This document shows positions 35,601-41,600 of a DNA stretch of 64,000 nucleotides, piece by piece (the stretch's first letter is position 1; every line of letters begins with the position of its first letter). This DNA is from Escherichia coli (lineage in GTDB: Bacteria; Pseudomonadota; Gammaproteobacteria; Enterobacterales; Enterobacteriaceae). The stretch lies in assembly GCF_002854065.1 (NCBI RefSeq), contig NZ_CP024147.1; one strand, 5' to 3'. The position numbers are program-made.

Positions 35601-38600
35601 TGGTGATAATTCCAGGAATTGGCGGAACCACGGTTTGTGCACCAGTATTAATAAAAATTTTCTCGCCATGAATCTCCTGATTTCCCTCAGGCCGATGAAC
35701 ACGCAGGCTATGATTATTGATAAACTCCGCCTGGCCGTTGATCACGTCGATATTGGGCATATCTGCAAGATTATGAAAATTCTTATTACGTAAAAAATTA
35801 ACCACTTCATTTTTACGCTGTATGGCACGGACAAAATCTGTGTGCTGCTGTGCGTCATGAACCAATGTTTTGGTTGGGATGCAGCCGATATTAATACAGG
35901 TCCCGCCATACATTGCATTTGATTGTTCGATGAGAGCCACACGCCAACCTGCTTTTGCCAGCGTGACGGCTAATGTTTTTCCAGCCTTGCCAAAACCAAT
36001 AATCACTGCCTGATATTTATTCATGATGATTTCCTGTCGAAACGCGTTCATTTGACATCATGACTATAGACGCAAAAGAGCAAATAACATTTCTTCACAA
36101 CGCTTGATATTTTGTCTTATCGTCTGGTATTTTCTTTTTCTTAATCAGAATCACAAAACAAAAATCACGATTAACTATTTGATGGTATTAGATTAGTTAT
36201 TTACTAAGATTGTTGGTGTTTGTAATCAAAAACCACTCAGGAGTCTGATATGGATGCCCTTAGCCGTTTGTTGATGCTTAACGCTCCACAAGGAACGATC
36301 GATAAGAATTGCGTGTTAGGAAGTGACTGGCAGCTTCCACATGGTGCCGGGGAATTATCGGTTATTCGTTGGCATGCGTTAACGCAAGGAGCGGCGAAGC
36401 TGGAAATGCCGACGGGAGAGATTTTTACATTACGCCCGGGAAATGTGGTCCTGCTACCACAAAATTCAGCTCATCGCCTGAGTCATGTCGATAATGAATC
36501 GACCTGTATTGTCTGTGGTACTCTTCGGCTGCAACATTCGGCACGTTATTTTTTAACGTCTTTGCCGGAAACGCTGTTTTTAGCACCGGTTAACCACAGC
36601 GTGGAATATAACTGGCTGAGGGAGGCGATCCCGTTTTTACAACAGGAATCCAGATCGGCAATGCCGGGAGTGGATGCACTGTGTAGCCAGATCTGCGCTA
36701 CATTCTTTACCCTCGCGGTGCGTGAGTGGATTGCACAGGTTAATACTGAGAAAAACATTCTCAGTTTGCTTCTGCATCCACGTCTTGGTGCGGTAATACA
36801 GCAAATGCTGGAAATGCCAGGACACGCCTGGACCGTCGAATCGCTGGCCAGCATCGCCCACATGTCCCGGGCAAGTTTTGCCCAGCTTTTCCGTGATGTT
36901 TCCGGAACCACGCCGCTGGCTGTATTAACAAAGTTGCGTCTACAAATAGCGGCCCAGATGTTTTCCCGGGAAATGCTCCCTGTTGTGGTGATCGCTGAGT
37001 CAGTAGGCTATGCCAGTGAATCATCTTTTCACAAGGCGTTTGTCCGCGAGTTTGGTTGTACTCCGGGAGAATATCGGGAAAGGGTCAGACAGCTTGCACC
37101 CTGAATAAAACCGCCAGAAATCAGGGCAAAGATAATCCGCATTCCGGGAGTTGTGAGCCTTTCAACTATTTCTATTTCCAACGGTGGTTTGGGCTTTATA
37201 TATTTTTTTCTGATGGACTCTTGCTCAGTTTTTAAATAAAAATGCAAACTAAATTGCTTCAATTAAATAAAATCCCGACTATTACTCGATACGTGATTAT
37301 TGTCGGTGATTTTTTTGTACACCATCAGTGTATATCTCAATAACCCCTGAATAAGTAGCTCTGAATAGGTATAAGGGATGTAGCCATTTTTAAATGGATT
37401 TCTTATGCTAAAAATGATCGTCGATTTCCCCATAAAATGTGAGCGATGCCGAAAGAAATAAAATTAGTTATTGCATTTGAAGTTTGGATGAAAGATTATC
37501 ATTTGTCATACAAATGAGGAGTGGTATGTTGCTAGCCAATTAAAAAAGAACGCCATATTTATTGATGATTGCTCCCCCGGTGGGGGGGAAACATCGGGCA
37601 TAAATGGGCATGAAGTAATGGAGTATTAGTTGTGAATGTCAATTTCTTTGTCACCTGTATTGGTGACGCCCTGAAATCAAGAATGGCACGAGACTCCGTG
37701 CTGCTACTGGAAAAACTCGGCTGTCGCGTAAATTTCCCGGAGAAACAGGGATGCTGCGGTCAGCCTGCGATCAATAGCGGTTATATCAAAGAAGCTATTC
37801 CAGGGATGAAAAATCTGATCGCCGCACTGGAGGATAACGATGATCCCATTATTTCACCGGCTGGCTCCTGCACCTATGCCGTAAAAAGTTACCCGATGTA
37901 TCTGGCGGATGAACCTGAATGGGCATCACGTGCCGCAAAGGTTGCCGCGCGTATGCAGGATCTCACCTCTTTTATTGTTAATAAATTAGGGGTAGTCGAT
38001 GTAGGTGCCAGTTTGCAAGGGAGAGCGGTGTATCACCCATCTTGTAGCCTGGCCCGTAAGTTGGGGGTGAAGGACGAGCCACTTACGCTGCTGAAAAATG
38101 TGCGTGGACTGGAGCTGTTGACCTTTGCTGAACAGGATACCTGCTGCGGATTTGGCGGCACGTTCTCGGTCAAAATGGCCGAAATATCCGGCGAGATGGT
38201 GAAAGAAAAGGTTGCGCACCTGATGGAAGTCCGCCCTGAGTATTTAATAGGTGCTGACGTGAGTTGCCTGCTGAACATCAGTGGGCGATTACAACGGGAA
38301 GGGCAGAAAGTCAAAGTGATGCATATTGCTGAAGTGTTGATGAGCCGCTGAGGATATAAAGATGTCGATCAAAACCAGTAATACAGATTTTAAGACACGC
38401 ATCCGTCAGCAAATTGAAGATCCGATCATGCGCAAAGCGGTGGCAAACGCGCAGCAGCGTATTGGGGCAAATCGGCAAAAAATGGTCGATGAATTGGGGC
38501 ACTGGGAGGAGTGGCGCGATCGGGCCGCCCAGATACGTGATCATGTTCTGAGTAATCTCGACGCTTATCTGTACCAGCTCTCAGAAAAAGTGACGCAAAA

Positions 38601-41600
38601 CGGCGGTCACGTCTATTTTGCAAAAACCAAAGAAGACGCTACCCGCTACATTTTACAGGTTGCCCAACGCAAAAATGCCCGGAAGGTGGTGAAATCTAAA
38701 TCGATGGTGACCGAAGAGATTGGTGTCAATCATGTGTTGCAGGATGCTGGCATTCAGGTGATTGAAACCGATCTGGGTGAATATATTCTCCAGCTGGATC
38801 AAGATCCGCCATCTCATGTTGTGGTCCCGGCAATTCATAAAGATCGCCATCAGATCCGTCGAGTGCTACACGAACGTCTGGGCTATGAGGGGTCGGAAAC
38901 GCCTGAAGCAATGACCTTATTCATCCGGCAAAAAATCCGCGAAGATTTCCTCAGTGCTGAAATAGGTATTACCGGCTGTAATTTCGCGGTGGCAGAGACC
39001 GGTTCGGTATGCCTGGTGACCAATGAAGGTAATGCGCGAATGTGTACCACGCTGCCTAAAACGCATATTGCAGTGATGGGAATGGAGCGTATTGCCCCCA
39101 CGTTTGCCGAGGTAGATGTATTGATCACCATGCTGGCGCGCAGTGCCGTTGGTGCACGTTTGACGGGATACAACACCTGGCTGACAGGACCGCGCGAAGC
39201 GGGGCACGTTGATGGTCCTGAAGAGTTTCATCTGGTTATTGTCGATAACGGGCGTTCTGAGGTGCTGGCCTCTGAATTTCGGGATGTGCTGCGCTGTATT
39301 CGCTGCGGGGCTTGTATGAATACTTGTCCGGCATATCGCCATATTGGCGGTCATGGATATGGCTCTATTTATCCAGGGCCAATTGGTGCGGTGATTTCTC
39401 CGCTACTTGGCGGCTATAAAGATTTTAAAGATTTACCCTACGCCTGCTCTTTATGCACAGCTTGTGACAACGTGTGTCCAGTGCGTATTCCGCTGTCAAA
39501 ACTGATTTTGCGTCATCGTCGGGTGATGGCTGAAAAAGGGATCACCGCAAAAGCAGAGCAACGGGCGATAAAAATGTTCGCTTATGCCAATAGTCATCCA
39601 GGATTGTGGAAAGTCGGGATGATGGCCGGCGCTCATGCGGCAAGCTGGTTTATCAATGGCGGCAAAACACCACTCAAATTTGGCGCGATTAGCGACTGGA
39701 TGGAAGCACGCGATCTTCCTGAAGCTGACGGAGAGAGTTTCCGTAGTTGGTTTAAGAAACATCAGGCGCAGGAGAAAAAGAATGGATAATCGAGGCGAAT
39801 TTTTGAATAACGTTGCTCAGGCACTGGGTCGCCCGCTGCGACTTGAACCGCAAGCAGAAGATGCGCCGCTTAACAACTATGCTAACGAGCGGCTTACCGA
39901 ACTTAACCAACAGCAGCGCTGTGACGCGTTTATTCAGTTTGCCAGCGATGTTATGTTGACGCGCTGTGAACTGACCAGCGAGGCGAAGGCGGCAGAAGCT
40001 GCAATACGACTGTGTAAAGAGCTGGGAGATCAGTCGGTCGTGATTAGCGGTGACACGAGGCTGGAGGAATTAGGGATTAGCGAACGTTTGCAGCAGGAAT
40101 GCAATGCCGTTGTTTGGGATCCGGCGAAAGGTGCCGAGAATATCTCGCAGGCAGAGCAGGCTAAAGTGGGTGTCGTGTATGCTGACTATGGTTTAACCGA
40201 ATCGGGAGGCGTGGTTCTTTTTTCCGCCGCCGAGCGCGGGCGTTCATTGAGCCTGCTCCCGGAATCATCTCTTTTTATCCTGCGTAAAAGCACAATCCTG
40301 CCGCGTGTAGCGCAACTCGCAGAAAAATTGCATCAGAAAGCGCAGGCCGGTGAACGAATGCCGTCATGTATTAACATCATCAGTGGTCCCAGCTCAACGG
40401 CGGACATTGAGCTTATCAAAGTCGTCGGGGTTCATGGTCCGGTGAAAGCGGTGTATCTGATTATTGAGGATTGCTGAGAGAGGTATGAAGTCTGGACATA
40501 AACCTGAAGGCGGCATACGAGGTTTGAATAGCGTTAAGGGCAACCTGACTTAACCCCGTTCCGTCATGGTTATGCTCCTCTTCTGTAAATATCCTGGCAT
40601 TACTAATGCCAGGATATTTACAGTGAAAAAGACAGGCATCCATTCCTGAAAACGGGTTCCCTTCCCGGTCATTGTCACTTCAGCTTTATACAGGCACTCT
40701 CTATCAGAATGCTGTTTATTACTGCCCAGAGTTTTGTTGGTATTCATCTACCATTTTTTTAACAAGGCAAAACATTACAGAAATTACAATGCTTAGAAAA
40801 AATCCCAGAGCCAGGCAAATGGCAGCAGGGTATTTATTTTTTATTTCTGGTGAGCTTATAGTTACACAGCCATCACCGTTCGGATACAATGACCAGTTCC
40901 TGGTCAGGTATATCATTTTTGTATAAAGCTCACTGTTAATTGCTGAAGGCGTTTGTATCTCATCGAGAACTTGCCTGCCATTATGGTATTCTGACGCATA
41001 CCATTTGATAATAGACGCCTGCACGCGAGATATTTCCGCTTCAGCAGTTGGTAAATCTCTCTTATCTCCTGACCATTCCAGCTTTATTTCTCTGTTCTTG
41101 ACATCTGGGCTGGTGTGAAAAAATGTAGTAATTCGCTGAATAACATCTTCAGTCATTGTGGTCTGACAGGCAAAGTTATTATTGCTATCACAGTTAACAA
41201 GTATGCCTGGCGTTGTCTGGTTTATTTTTAGGCTGTAACTCACTTTTATATTATCTTTATTGATATACAGAAACAACAGCACCATAGCCATACAGATAGC
41301 CATAATAAAAAGGATAACACGAATCTTTTTCTTCAGATAAAATAAAATCTCAATCAGATCGATATCCTGTTTGATTTGTTCATTCATAATATATCCAGAA
41401 AATAAAACCTGTCGCAGATAAGGTTGTATTAATAGTCTGTATCAGGAATGTTCGGGGTAAATATCAGCAAAAAACCAGCATCATGAATACTGGATATGAA
41501 GCATGAGAGTTACCCCTATGTTTTATATAACGATTCTGTCCCCATACCTGGAACGGTAACTCTCAATCTGATCGGTTCCTGAGTCAGTTCAAATCACGAC

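What the first reader, a model, noticed from the sequence alone, without database searches (positions are those of the whole stretch)
37632..40477. ykgEFG encodes a LutABC-type three-subunit Fe-S oxidase of unassigned substrate in E. coli
Seen: CCG-domain protein, double 4Fe-4S ferredoxin protein and LutC-like protein in an overlapping operon, located between the rcl redox operon and the bet operon. Established: LutABC oxidises L-lactate in Bacillus; the E. coli role is poorly defined. Well known as a gene set, but its physiological function is still open.
Basis: established knowledge. Interest (0 to 1): 0.3.

Follow-up and report, generated by a model that had tools for sequence, protein, structure and literature searches.

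The report
E. coli ykgEFG lactate oxidase operon
This is the well-known E. coli ykgEFG operon, an iron-sulfur L-lactate oxidising enzyme of the LutABC type. Published genetics have already tied it to L-lactate, and its upstream spacer shows it is the surviving part of a larger lactate-utilisation island.

Summary
Window 37632-40477 holds three intact genes: ykgE (two CCG domains), ykgF (LUD domain, two 4Fe-4S motifs, LutB_C) and ykgG (LUD domain). They differ from E. coli K-12 by 1-3 amino acids and occur in 5251 of 5426 complete E. coli genomes.

The family assignment holds: YkgF scores 779 bits against a 445-bit cut-off for the LutB/LldF equivalog, and the YkgE model matches B. subtilis LutA at 52% identity. 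"Unassigned substrate" is outdated:
- A ykgEFG deletion loses fitness specifically with L-lactate plus nitrate (Taylor 2022).
- 2,4-dihydroxybutyrate oxidation is attributed jointly to LldD, Dld and YkgEFG (triple-deletion strain; Malfoy 2024, cited second-hand).
- YieP represses the operon about tenfold.

New here: the 527-bp rclR-ykgE spacer is a decayed remnant of a lactate island, lctP(-)|dld-lutABC. That island is intact on Klebsiella plasmids and in Citrobacter gillenii. Other Citrobacter species have lost only dld. A 25-residue permease fragment, the former dld promoter and the YieP operator survive in E. coli.

The catalytic chemistry is still unknown: there is no flavin domain and no solved structure. 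The gene set itself is already known, so interest is low to moderate.

The parts
37092..37167 (-). Vestige of a lactate permease gene (lctP), corresponding to residues 334-358 of a 517-aa permease. It abuts and overlaps the 3' end of rclR.
   Evidence: tblastn with the K. pneumoniae plasmid permease gives 20/25 identical residues. E is 3e-8 in the local search and 4.5e-6 against the whole 64-kb window, where it is the only significant hit. blastn gives 74-78% identity over 67-73 nt to lctP of the Klebsiella plasmid and of C. werkmanii, C. gillenii and C. youngae. These matches are colinear with the other remnants.
37234..37271 (.). Vestige of the lctP-dld divergent intergenic region of the intact island.
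   Evidence: blastn gives 85% over 39 nt to L003 4860-4898 and 90% over 30 nt to C. gillenii. The matches are colinear.
37434..37517 (+). Former dld promoter region, now the ykgE promoter. It includes a conserved block, AATGTGAGCGATGCCGAAAGAAATAAA, with a TGTGA half-site at 37438-37442.
   Evidence: 75-79% identity over 87-88 nt to the region just upstream of dld in the Klebsiella plasmid and C. gillenii, and upstream of ykgE in the dld-less Citrobacter species.
37471..37499 (+). Putative sigma-70 promoter: TTGCAT (-35), 17-nt spacer, GATTAT (-10).
   Evidence: Read directly from the sequence. The -35 is conserved in the plasmid and Citrobacter. Its position fits the Reg-Seq statement that the YieP site lies downstream of the RNA polymerase site. 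The consensus scan instead picked TTGTCA-16-TATGTT at 37503-37530, so the transcription start is not settled.
37501..37515 (.). YieP operator, the perfect palindrome ATTTGTCATACAAAT.
   Evidence: It matches the published ChIP-exo motif atTTGTaTGAcaAAT. It is the only exact match to the 11-nt core in the window. It is identical in K-12 and conserved upstream of dld in the plasmid island and in seven Citrobacter species. A one-mismatch copy lies 42 nt upstream of lctP-lutABC in Kosakonia sacchari.
37517..37544 (+). GAGGAG plus a 5-codon mini-ORF (ATG 37527 to TAA 37544). Probably a vestige of the dld ribosome-binding site and start.
   Evidence: It aligns with the AAGGAGCGGAG...ATG of dld in the plasmid island. 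This is an inference.
37574..37588 (+). C5-GGT-G7 hairpin and homopolymer tract in the ykgE 5' leader.
   Evidence: Intact islands carry a different palindrome (CTTGATATCGCGATATCAAG) at the equivalent place. The leader as a whole folds no better than shuffled sequence (z -0.09).
37632..38351 (+). ykgE (LutA/LldE): 239 aa with two CCG domains and the Fe-S ligands C9, C41, C42, C80 / C138, C171, C172, C212.
   Evidence: The AF2 model has pLDDT 91.7. Foldseek's top match is the B. subtilis LutA model 9a6l_A (52% identity, TM 0.96), followed by HdrB (TM 0.76-0.79).
38362..39789 (+). ykgF (LutB/LldF): 475 aa with an N-terminal LUD domain, two CxxCxxCxxxCP [4Fe-4S] motifs and a LutB_C domain.
   Evidence: NCBIfam TIGR00273 equivalog scores 778.9 bits against a 444.8 cut-off. 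The ferredoxin part matches HdrC, 5odc_C.
39782..40477 (+). ykgG (LutC/LldG): 231 aa, LUD domain. It overlaps ykgF by 8 nt, which suggests translational coupling.
   Evidence: It matches the D. radiodurans LutC crystal structure 2g40 (E 1.5e-9), including the SGxSxTxDIEL..GVHGP motif.
40583..40623 (.). 41-nt perfect palindrome in the convergent ykgG/ykgH spacer. It may be a bidirectional transcript-end hairpin.
   Evidence: There is no other copy in the window. It is present in K-12 with two mismatches. Its function was not tested.

Best explanation
ykgEFG encodes the E. coli member of the LutABC/LldEFG family. This is a soluble or peripherally membrane-associated three-subunit iron-sulfur enzyme that oxidises L-lactate, and probably other short (S)-2-hydroxy acids, to the 2-oxo acid and passes the electrons to the respiratory chain.

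Proposed path (inferred): the substrate binds in the LUD-domain pair formed by YkgF (N-terminal part) and YkgG. Electrons pass through the two [4Fe-4S] clusters of YkgF to the two CCG-type clusters of YkgE, an HdrC/HdrB-like module, and on to quinone. This supports anaerobic nitrate respiration.

Transcription starts about 125 nt upstream of ykgE. It is kept low by the GntR-family repressor YieP, which binds the palindrome at 37501-37515.

The locus is the conserved remainder of a lactate island, lctP(-)|dld-lutABC. In E. coli the permease and the D-lactate dehydrogenase gene were deleted, so the former dld promoter and YieP operator now drive ykgEFG directly. Lactate uptake and the main aerobic L-lactate route are provided elsewhere in the genome (lldPRD; established knowledge, not tested here).
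For: Shown here:
- Domain content and intact reading frames.
- YkgF is far above the LutB/LldF equivalog cut-off.
- The YkgE model matches B. subtilis LutA at 52% identity and TM 0.96.
- HdrB and HdrC are the nearest experimentally solved relatives.
- Eight cysteines are invariant across 111 diverse LutA homologues.
- No transmembrane segment in any subunit.
- A lactate permease gene sits directly upstream of the homologous operon in Pasteurella, Pectobacterium, Edwardsiella, Mixta, Kosakonia sacchari and a second E. coli island copy.
- The closest relatives (94.6/94.5/87.0% amino-acid identity) lie in an lctP|dld-lutABC island on a Klebsiella IncF plasmid and in Citrobacter chromosomes.
- Colinear remnants of lctP, the lctP-dld spacer and the dld promoter lie in window 37092-37517.
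- Purifying selection is strong: dN/dS 0.03-0.07 at dS of about 1. The locus is retained in 97% of E. coli genomes.

Published:
- L-lactate- and nitrate-specific fitness defect of the ykgEFG deletion (PMC9701030).
- Roughly tenfold derepression in a yieP deletion and the ChIP-exo motif (PMC7642389).
- YieP and FNR act at the ykgE promoter (PMC7567609).
- LutA-LutB-LutC form a 1:1:1 complex in B. subtilis cells (PMC10090944).
- (S)-2-hydroxybutyrate and L-lactate phenotypes of lutACB in R. eutropha (PMC10656315).
- 2,4-dihydroxybutyrate oxidation attributed to LldD, Dld and YkgEFG together (triple-deletion strain; PMC13279387).
Against: - No enzyme assay exists for the E. coli complex. The E. 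coli evidence is one competitive-index experiment.
- The mutant had no phenotype in three mouse colitis settings.
- K-12 is reported to show no L-lactate phenotype (secondary report).
- Overexpression did not change lactate titres.
- None of the three proteins has a recognisable flavin or nicotinamide domain, so the hydride-accepting chemistry is unexplained.
- The H. pylori homologue was reported as NAD-dependent rather than quinone-linked.
- The arginine that Hwang et al. placed in the LutC active site (R204) is valine in YkgG.
- Which subunit binds lactate, and the direction of electron flow through YkgE, are inferred only.
- A 2023 review still calls for the function to be revisited.
Confidence: 0.75

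Rival explanations
1. YkgEFG is mainly a broad-range (S)-2-hydroxy-acid oxidoreductase. Its physiological substrate in E. coli is something other than lactate, for example 2-hydroxybutyrate, glycolate-like acids or stress-derived hydroxy acids, and lactate is a side activity.
For: - 2,4-dihydroxybutyrate oxidation is attributed to LldD, Dld and YkgEFG.
- R. eutropha LutACB acts on (S)-2-hydroxybutyrate and contributes only partly to L-lactate use.
- E. coli control is by YieP, not by the lactate regulator LldR.
- The core locus has no adjacent permease.
Against: - The only substrate-specific E. coli phenotype is with L-lactate.
- Six homologous operons have a lactate permease directly upstream, and the closest relatives sit beside lctP and dld.
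- The E. coli locus itself carries lctP and dld remnants.
Confidence: 0.15
2. YkgEFG is an NAD-linked or otherwise soluble L-lactate dehydrogenase, not a quinone-linked respiratory enzyme.
For: - The H. pylori hp0137-0139 mutant lost NAD-dependent, not dye-linked, L-LDH activity.
- Hwang et al. docked NAD(P) into the LutC dimer cavity.
- No membrane anchor was found.
Against: - The E. coli phenotype needs a respiratory acceptor, nitrate.
- No Rossmann or NAD domain was detected.
- The HdrBC-like Fe-S module is typical of electron transfer to quinone or other acceptors: GlpC, GlcF and EtfD are relatives.
- According to the H. pylori paper, other family members are described as NAD-independent.
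Confidence: 0.05
3. The operon belongs functionally with its neighbours or its co-regulon. Either it is part of the reactive-chlorine (rcl) response, or it is a 3-hydroxypropionate tolerance or metabolism function.
For: - It lies next to rclR.
- A review links it to oxidants and to 3-hydroxypropionate.
- It is co-repressed with yohJK by YieP.
Against: - It has its own promoter and operator 527 bp from rclR.
- The adjacency to rcl is not seen in Citrobacter, Klebsiella plasmids, Kosakonia, Dickeya and the other relatives examined.
- The ykgEFG deletion was not among the mutants sensitive to 3-hydroxypropionate.
Confidence: 0.03
4. The locus is a functionless relic that is decaying like its former neighbours lctP and dld.
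For: - The neighbours are reduced to fragments.
- Expression is strongly repressed.
- There are no in vivo phenotypes.
Against: - All three frames are intact.
- dN/dS is 0.03-0.07 against relatives at synonymous saturation.
- The locus is present in 5251 of 5426 genomes.
- There is a measurable L-lactate/nitrate phenotype.
Confidence: 0.02

Closest known systems
Bacillus subtilis LutABC (lactate utilisation, Chai et al. 2009)
   Same: Same three proteins in the same gene order. YkgE is 52% identical to LutA with TM 0.96. It has the same domain set. LutA-LutB-LutC form a heterotrimer in B. subtilis cells.
   Different: B. subtilis has the LutR repressor and the lutP permease as partners. The E. 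coli core locus has neither nearby and is controlled by the distant regulator YieP. E. coli also has LldD as its main aerobic L-lactate enzyme.
Shewanella oneidensis LldEFG (Pinchuk et al. 2009)
   Same: This is the family used to name the NCBIfam LutB/LldF equivalog that YkgF satisfies. Several sources name close YkgE homologues LldE.
   Different: Not compared residue by residue here, because the sequence was not retrievable and the PNAS paper is not held.
lctP|dld-lutABC island of Klebsiella/E. coli IncF plasmids and Citrobacter gillenii
   Same: 94.6/94.5/87.0% amino-acid identity for E/F/G. Gene lengths are identical. The promoter -35 and YieP operator are the same.
   Different: The island keeps a 517-aa lactate permease and a 565-aa D-lactate dehydrogenase. 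In the window these are reduced to a 25-codon fragment and a few tens of bases.
Heterodisulfide reductase HdrBC (PDB 5odc)
   Same: YkgE has the HdrB fold (TM 0.76-0.79) and CCG motifs. The YkgF ferredoxin domain matches HdrC. It is likely the same kind of Fe-S relay.
   Different: HdrB has CX(n)CCX(n)CXXC, five Cys per domain. LutA-type proteins have four Cys per domain. The first Cys of CXXC is Ser/Ala in domain 1 and Asp/Glu in domain 2. The substrate is different, and there is no HdrA flavoprotein.
GlcF of glycolate oxidase GlcDEF and GlpC of GlpABC
   Same: They have the same fused HdrC-like plus CCG architecture, which acts as the electron outlet of a 2-hydroxy-acid or glycerol-3-phosphate dehydrogenase. 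YkgE hits both models (1e-28 and 3e-22, below their cut-offs).
   Different: Those systems have FAD-containing catalytic subunits (GlcD/E, GlpA/B). ykgEFG has LUD domains instead and no flavoprotein.
LdhH (NF045670), annotated as quinone-dependent L-lactate dehydrogenase large subunit
   Same: It is a LutB-LutA fusion. YkgF aligns to positions 2-464 and YkgE to positions 468-705 of the 706-position model.
   Different: It is a fused single chain. E. coli scores (427 and 183 bits) are below the 800-bit cut-off, so YkgE and YkgF are homologues, not members.

Membership tests
LutABC/LldEFG L-lactate oxidation system | LutB/LldF subunit: LUD domain, two [4Fe-4S] motifs and a LutB_C domain, scoring above the equivalog cut-off. 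| tested here: met
   TIGR00273 scores 778.9 bits against a 444.8 cut-off. Pfam finds LUD, Fer4_8 and LutB_C. There are two CxxCxxCxxxCP motifs.
LutABC/LldEFG L-lactate oxidation system | LutA/LldE subunit of about 240 aa with two CCG domains. | tested here: met
   PF02754 matches twice. The model is 52% identical, TM 0.96, to the B. subtilis LutA model 9a6l_A. Eight family-invariant Cys are present.
LutABC/LldEFG L-lactate oxidation system | LutC/LldG subunit consisting of a LUD domain only. | tested here: met
   PF02589 E 3.3e-30. It matches D. radiodurans LutC, 2g40. No NCBIfam model hit at the threshold used.
LutABC/LldEFG L-lactate oxidation system | Three genes co-oriented and contiguous in the order A-B-C. 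| tested here: met
   A 10-nt gap and an 8-nt overlap. The same order is seen in all 11 related loci where all three genes were mapped, L003-L006, L008-L012, L014 and L016.
LutABC/LldEFG L-lactate oxidation system | Genomic association with lactate uptake or lactate regulator genes. | tested here: inconclusive
   There is no intact permease or regulator next to the E. coli locus. A permease vestige and the former dld promoter are present, and close relatives have lctP adjacent.
LutABC/LldEFG L-lactate oxidation system | Loss of the genes impairs L-lactate utilisation. | not testable with these tools
   Published for E. coli MP1: a fitness defect with L-lactate plus nitrate, but not with D-lactate (PMC9701030). 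K-12 is reported to have no phenotype.
LutABC/LldEFG L-lactate oxidation system | The three proteins form one complex. | not testable with these tools
   Shown for B. subtilis by cross-linking MS, co-fractionation and AlphaFold-Multimer.
Heterodisulfide reductase HdrB | Two CX(31-39)CCX(35-36)CXXC motifs, ten Cys in all, that bind non-cubane [4Fe-4S] clusters. | tested here: not met
   YkgE has C-X31-CC-X37-C and C-X32-CC-X39-C. The first Cys of each CXXC is A77 or D209. Family-wide these positions are Ser/Ala and Asp/Glu. The fold is shared.
FMN-dependent alpha-hydroxy-acid oxidases (LldD) and FAD-dependent GlcD/Dld | A flavin-binding catalytic domain. | tested here: not met
   Pfam found no FMN_dh, FAD_binding_4 or Rossmann domain in YkgE, YkgF or YkgG.
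LdhH quinone L-lactate dehydrogenase (NF045670) | A single LutB-LutA fusion chain scoring at least 800 bits. | tested here: not met
   YkgF scores 427 bits and YkgE 183 bits as separate chains.

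The most novel reading that the evidence does not exclude
The YieP operator marks an ancestral lactate module. YieP, whose ligand is unknown, would be the trans-acting sensor of the lctP|dld-lutABC island in Enterobacteriaceae and would respond to a lactate- or pyruvate-type acid. The E. coli ykgEFG promoter would be the captured dld promoter. In addition, the LutA-specific cluster ligation (eight Cys plus a conserved Asp/Glu, differing from HdrB) together with the LUD pair would carry out flavin-independent oxidation of a 2-hydroxy acid, a chemistry not yet described.
Probability: 0.2. Interest if true: 0.55.

Novelty: already known. Interest (0 to 1): 0.22.

Why it matters
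The gene set is annotated and studied, so it is not a discovery.

Two points have some value. Anyone following this lead should start from L-lactate with nitrate and from YieP derepression, not from a blank substrate screen.

Second, the upstream spacer explains a long-standing oddity: a lactate enzyme with no permease, no regulator and almost no phenotype. The explanation is that it is what remains of a permease, D-LDH and LutABC island. That island still circulates intact on Klebsiella and E. coli plasmids, and on plasmids or chromosomes of 108 of the 5426 E. coli genomes.

The shared YieP operator gives a direct, cheap experiment to find YieP's ligand. The family's flavin-free catalytic mechanism remains a real biochemical gap.

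Tried and rejected
- AlphaFold2 of YkgF with a 12-sequence alignment gave an unusable model (pLDDT 39.5), so no fold search was done on it.
- Rfam search of 36900-41600 at permissive thresholds found only a chance miRNA hit.
- Folding the 144-nt leader gave z = -0.09 against shuffles, so there is no evidence for a structured leader.
- The consensus promoter and terminator scan was at background level and found no + strand terminator after rclR or ykgG.
- I could not locate a convincing FNR box. TTGATGATTG(A/C)TCC at 37562-37575 fits the TTGAT-N4-ATCAA consensus poorly, so the FNR claim rests on Reg-Seq only.
- The Kyte-Doolittle scan found no transmembrane helix, and no striking amphipathic anchor was identified.
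- The word-indexed protein search returned only relatives at 70% identity or more. The Shewanella, Campylobacter and Neisseria proteins were therefore not compared directly, and the Pinchuk 2009 paper is not held.
- tblastn with Dld found no significant dld coding remnant. The 10-nt match TGGGCATGAA at 37605-37614 to the dld 3' end is ambiguous, because MAFFT aligns that stretch to the dld-lutA spacer instead.
- A 3-hydroxypropionate role was considered and rejected, because the ykgEFG deletion was not 3-HP sensitive.
- The genome pattern scan did not return E. coli itself. I did not resolve why.

Full report
**Observation.** The window is E. coli chromosome. A 4-kb query around the finding is 99.9% identical to strain 100416 and matches 5251 of 5426 complete E. 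coli genomes. The ORF list and RefSeq annotation of the near-identical strain give:
- ykgE, 37632-38351 (GTG start, 239 aa)
- ykgF, 38362-39789 (475 aa)
- ykgG, 39782-40477 (231 aa; the ATG lies inside a longer 280-aa ORF and is preceded by AGGAG)

The stated coordinates are exact. Upstream are rclCBA (-) and rclR (+). Downstream are ykgH (-), betA and betB. Against K-12 the proteins differ by 1, 2 and 3 residues and have no stop codons. ykgF and ykgG overlap by 8 nt. ykgE and ykgF are separated by 10 nt, so "overlapping operon" is half right.

**What the proteins are.**
- Pfam: YkgE has two CCG domains. YkgF has a LUD domain, a 4Fe-4S dicluster domain and LutB_C. YkgG has a LUD domain.
- YkgF scores 778.9 bits on the NCBIfam LutB/LldF equivalog, whose cut-off is 444.8.
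- YkgF has two CxxCxxCxxxCP motifs.
- No subunit has a predicted transmembrane helix, and none has a flavin or nicotinamide domain.
- By sequence, the nearest experimentally solved structures are HdrB for YkgE, HdrC for the YkgF ferredoxin part, and D. radiodurans LutC (2g40) for YkgG.
- An AlphaFold2 model of YkgE is confident (pLDDT 91.7).
- Its best structural match is the B. subtilis LutA chain of the deposited LutA-LutB integrative model (9a6l_A, 52% identity, TM 0.96). HdrB chains follow (TM 0.76-0.79, 16-18% identity), then M. smegmatis EtfD.
- A library-wide HMMER search found 8683 relatives of YkgE.
- In 111 full-length relatives at 32-46% identity, eight cysteines are essentially invariant: C9, C41, C42, C80, C138, C171, C172 and C212.
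- The position of the first Cys of HdrB's CXXC is Ser/Ala in domain 1 and Asp/Glu in domain 2. C31 is not conserved.
- YkgE therefore shares the HdrB fold but fails the HdrB cysteine signature. It is a LutA-type CCG protein.

**What is already published.**
- PMC9701030 made a clean ykgEFG deletion in E. coli MP1. The mutant lost fitness with L-lactate plus nitrate under anaerobiosis, but not with D-lactate. The authors call the enzyme a respiratory L-lactate dehydrogenase. No defect was seen in the mouse colitis models.
- PMC13279387, citing Malfoy et al. 2024, states that 2,4-dihydroxybutyrate is oxidised by LldD, Dld and YkgEFG. A strain lacking all three loses the response.
- PMC7642389 shows roughly tenfold derepression of ykgEFG in a yieP deletion and gives the YieP motif atTTGTaTGAcaAAT. 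The ykgEFG deletion was not among the 3-hydroxypropionate-sensitive mutants.
- Reg-Seq (PMC7567609) identified YieP by mass spectrometry at a repressor site downstream of the RNA polymerase site of the ykgE promoter. It also lists FNR.
- YieP is a FadR-subfamily GntR regulator, and no ligand for it has been identified.
- In B. subtilis, LutA, LutB and LutC form a 1:1:1 complex in cells (PMC10090944).
- In R. eutropha, lutACB contributes to L-lactate use and to (S)-2-hydroxybutyrate oxidation.
- The H. pylori homologue was reported as NAD-dependent.
- A 2023 review still argues that the function should be revisited.
- The LUD-domain paper proposes an active site in a LutC dimer cavity lined by Y55, H201 and R204. 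In YkgG the histidine is conserved but the arginine position is valine.

**Regulatory region in the window.** The perfect palindrome ATTTGTCATACAAAT lies at 37501-37515, 117 nt before the GTG. It is the only exact match to the motif core in 64 kb and is identical in K-12. Immediately upstream is TTGCAT-17 nt-GATTAT (37471-37499), which fits the Reg-Seq geometry. The consensus scan preferred an overlapping alternative, so the transcription start is not fixed. No RNA family and no unusually stable leader structure were found.

**New result: the upstream spacer is a decayed lactate island.**
- Lactate permease genes lie directly upstream of the homologous operon in Pasteurella, Pectobacterium, Edwardsiella, Mixta, Kosakonia sacchari and a second, island-borne E. 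coli copy.
- The closest relatives of the window's proteins (94.6/94.5/87.0% identity) are on K. pneumoniae IncF plasmid p69-1. The arrangement there is lctP(-), dld(+), lutA, lutB, lutC.
- Comparing that island with the 527-bp rclR-ykgE spacer gives four colinear matches:
  - 37096-37167 lies inside lctP. At the protein level 20 of 25 residues are identical on the minus strand. E is 4.5e-6 against the whole window, where it is the only significant hit.
  - 37234-37271 matches the lctP-dld spacer.
  - 37434-37517 matches the region just upstream of dld (79%).
  - 37610 onward matches the lutA start.
- The -35 hexamer and the YieP operator are conserved upstream of dld in the plasmid.
- An exact-pattern scan of one genome per species for this promoter-operator pair returned seven Citrobacter species.
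  - Citrobacter sp. Res13 has dld-ykgEFG behind this promoter. C. gillenii has lctP|dld-ykgE and the first 268 residues of ykgF; its locus ends there.
  - C. werkmanii, C. youngae and C. portucalensis have lctP|ykgEFG, with dld reduced to short 5' and 3' vestiges. Citrobacter spp. Cu233 and MGH106 show the same lctP-ykgE junction, but their stored loci end inside ykgE.
- The remnants in the window are reproduced against all four comparators.
- This gives a three-stage series: a full island, then loss of dld, then loss of dld and lctP in E. coli.
- ykgEFG itself stays under strong purifying selection: dN/dS 0.03-0.07 at dS of about 1.0-1.2.
- In C. werkmanii the island has no adjacent regulator. 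Kosakonia sacchari has a one-mismatch YieP-type operator 42 nt before lctP-lutABC.
- A trans-acting YieP-type repressor therefore seems to be the island's normal control. This is an inference.
- An intact island is also present as an extra copy in 108 of 5426 complete E. coli genomes, and 184 plasmids carry a copy at 80-90% identity. This agrees with reports on pFec10 and ST127.

**Mechanism.** Shown: family membership, Fe-S ligands, the HdrBC-like module, the absence of flavin domains and membrane anchors, and the conserved operator. Published: the L-lactate/nitrate phenotype, YieP repression, and heterotrimer formation in Bacillus. Inferred:
- L-lactate binds at the LUD pair formed by YkgF and YkgG.
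- Electrons pass through the YkgF clusters to the YkgE CCG clusters and then to quinone.
- Lactate enters through permeases encoded elsewhere.

The alternative, that the YkgE clusters are the catalytic site as in HdrB, cannot be excluded with these tools.

**Verdict.** The finding is a correct description of a known, annotated operon. Its "open function" is now largely assigned by genetics, so novelty is "already known" and interest is low. The relic-island origin and the shared YieP operator are modest additions. I did not find them in the papers I searched, and they yield direct experiments.

Noticed in passing
window 40583-40623: A 41-nt perfect palindrome (CTGTAAATATCCTGGCATTA c TAATGCCAGGATATTTACAG) lies in the convergent ykgG/ykgH spacer. 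It is unique in the window, and K-12 carries it with two mismatches. It has neither a GC-rich stem nor a T-run, so it is not a classical terminator.
   Followed up: partly
window 37574-37588: A C5-GGT-G7 hairpin and homopolymer tract lies in the ykgE leader. At the equivalent position the intact islands (Klebsiella plasmid, Citrobacter) carry an unrelated palindrome, CTTGATATCGCGATATCAAG. A hairpin seems to be kept there while its sequence is replaced.
   Followed up: partly
window 37438-37464: The block AATGTGAGCGATGCCGAAAGAAATAAA is highly conserved between E. coli, Citrobacter and the plasmid island. It contains a TGTGA half-site centred about 60 nt upstream of the putative start, which could be a CRP-type activator site. 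This was not tested.
   Followed up: no
window 37572: The window has C where K-12 has A, inside TTGATGATTG(A/C)TCC. This is the only FNR-like half-site I could see in the leader. In total there are seven differences from K-12 (six substitutions and one 1-nt indel) in the 527-bp spacer.
   Followed up: no
window 39782-40477 versus 38362-39789: ykgG differs from K-12 at 2.9% of nucleotides, ykgE at 1.1% and ykgF at only 0.4%. This suggests a recombination boundary near the ykgF/ykgG junction.
   Followed up: no
L005 (Dickeya) 2436-8852; L010 (Kosakonia radicincitans) 4763-9858; L008 (Pectobacterium) 1265-9846: A cfa-like cyclopropane-fatty-acid synthase gene sits immediately upstream of lutABC in Dickeya and K. 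radicincitans, and within 5 kb in Pectobacterium. Dickeya also has LrgA/LrgB (YohJ/YohK family) genes nearby. In E. coli YieP co-represses yohJK, rydC (an sRNA that promotes cyclopropane fatty acid synthase, Cfa) and ykgEFG, so the same three functions are linked either by position or by regulator.
   Followed up: partly
L003 3240-9846; E. coli genome hits H26-H37: An intact lctP|dld-lutABC island circulates on conjugative IncF plasmids. 184 plasmids, mostly Klebsiella and Escherichia, carry a copy at 80-90% identity. The island is also an extra copy in 108 of 5426 complete E. coli genomes, on plasmids or on the chromosome.
   Followed up: partly
L006/L007 5394-9849: A third, more distant E. 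coli version (YkgE 77% identical) is arranged as lactate permease-lutABC. It lies in an island flanked by a YadA-like adhesin, an autotransporter protease and an integrase fragment.
   Followed up: no
window 37029-37262 (-): The 77-aa ORF in the mechanical ORF list on the minus strand is not a gene. Its middle part (TTPGMRIIFALISGGFIQGAS) is the lactate permease fragment read in frame.
   Followed up: yes
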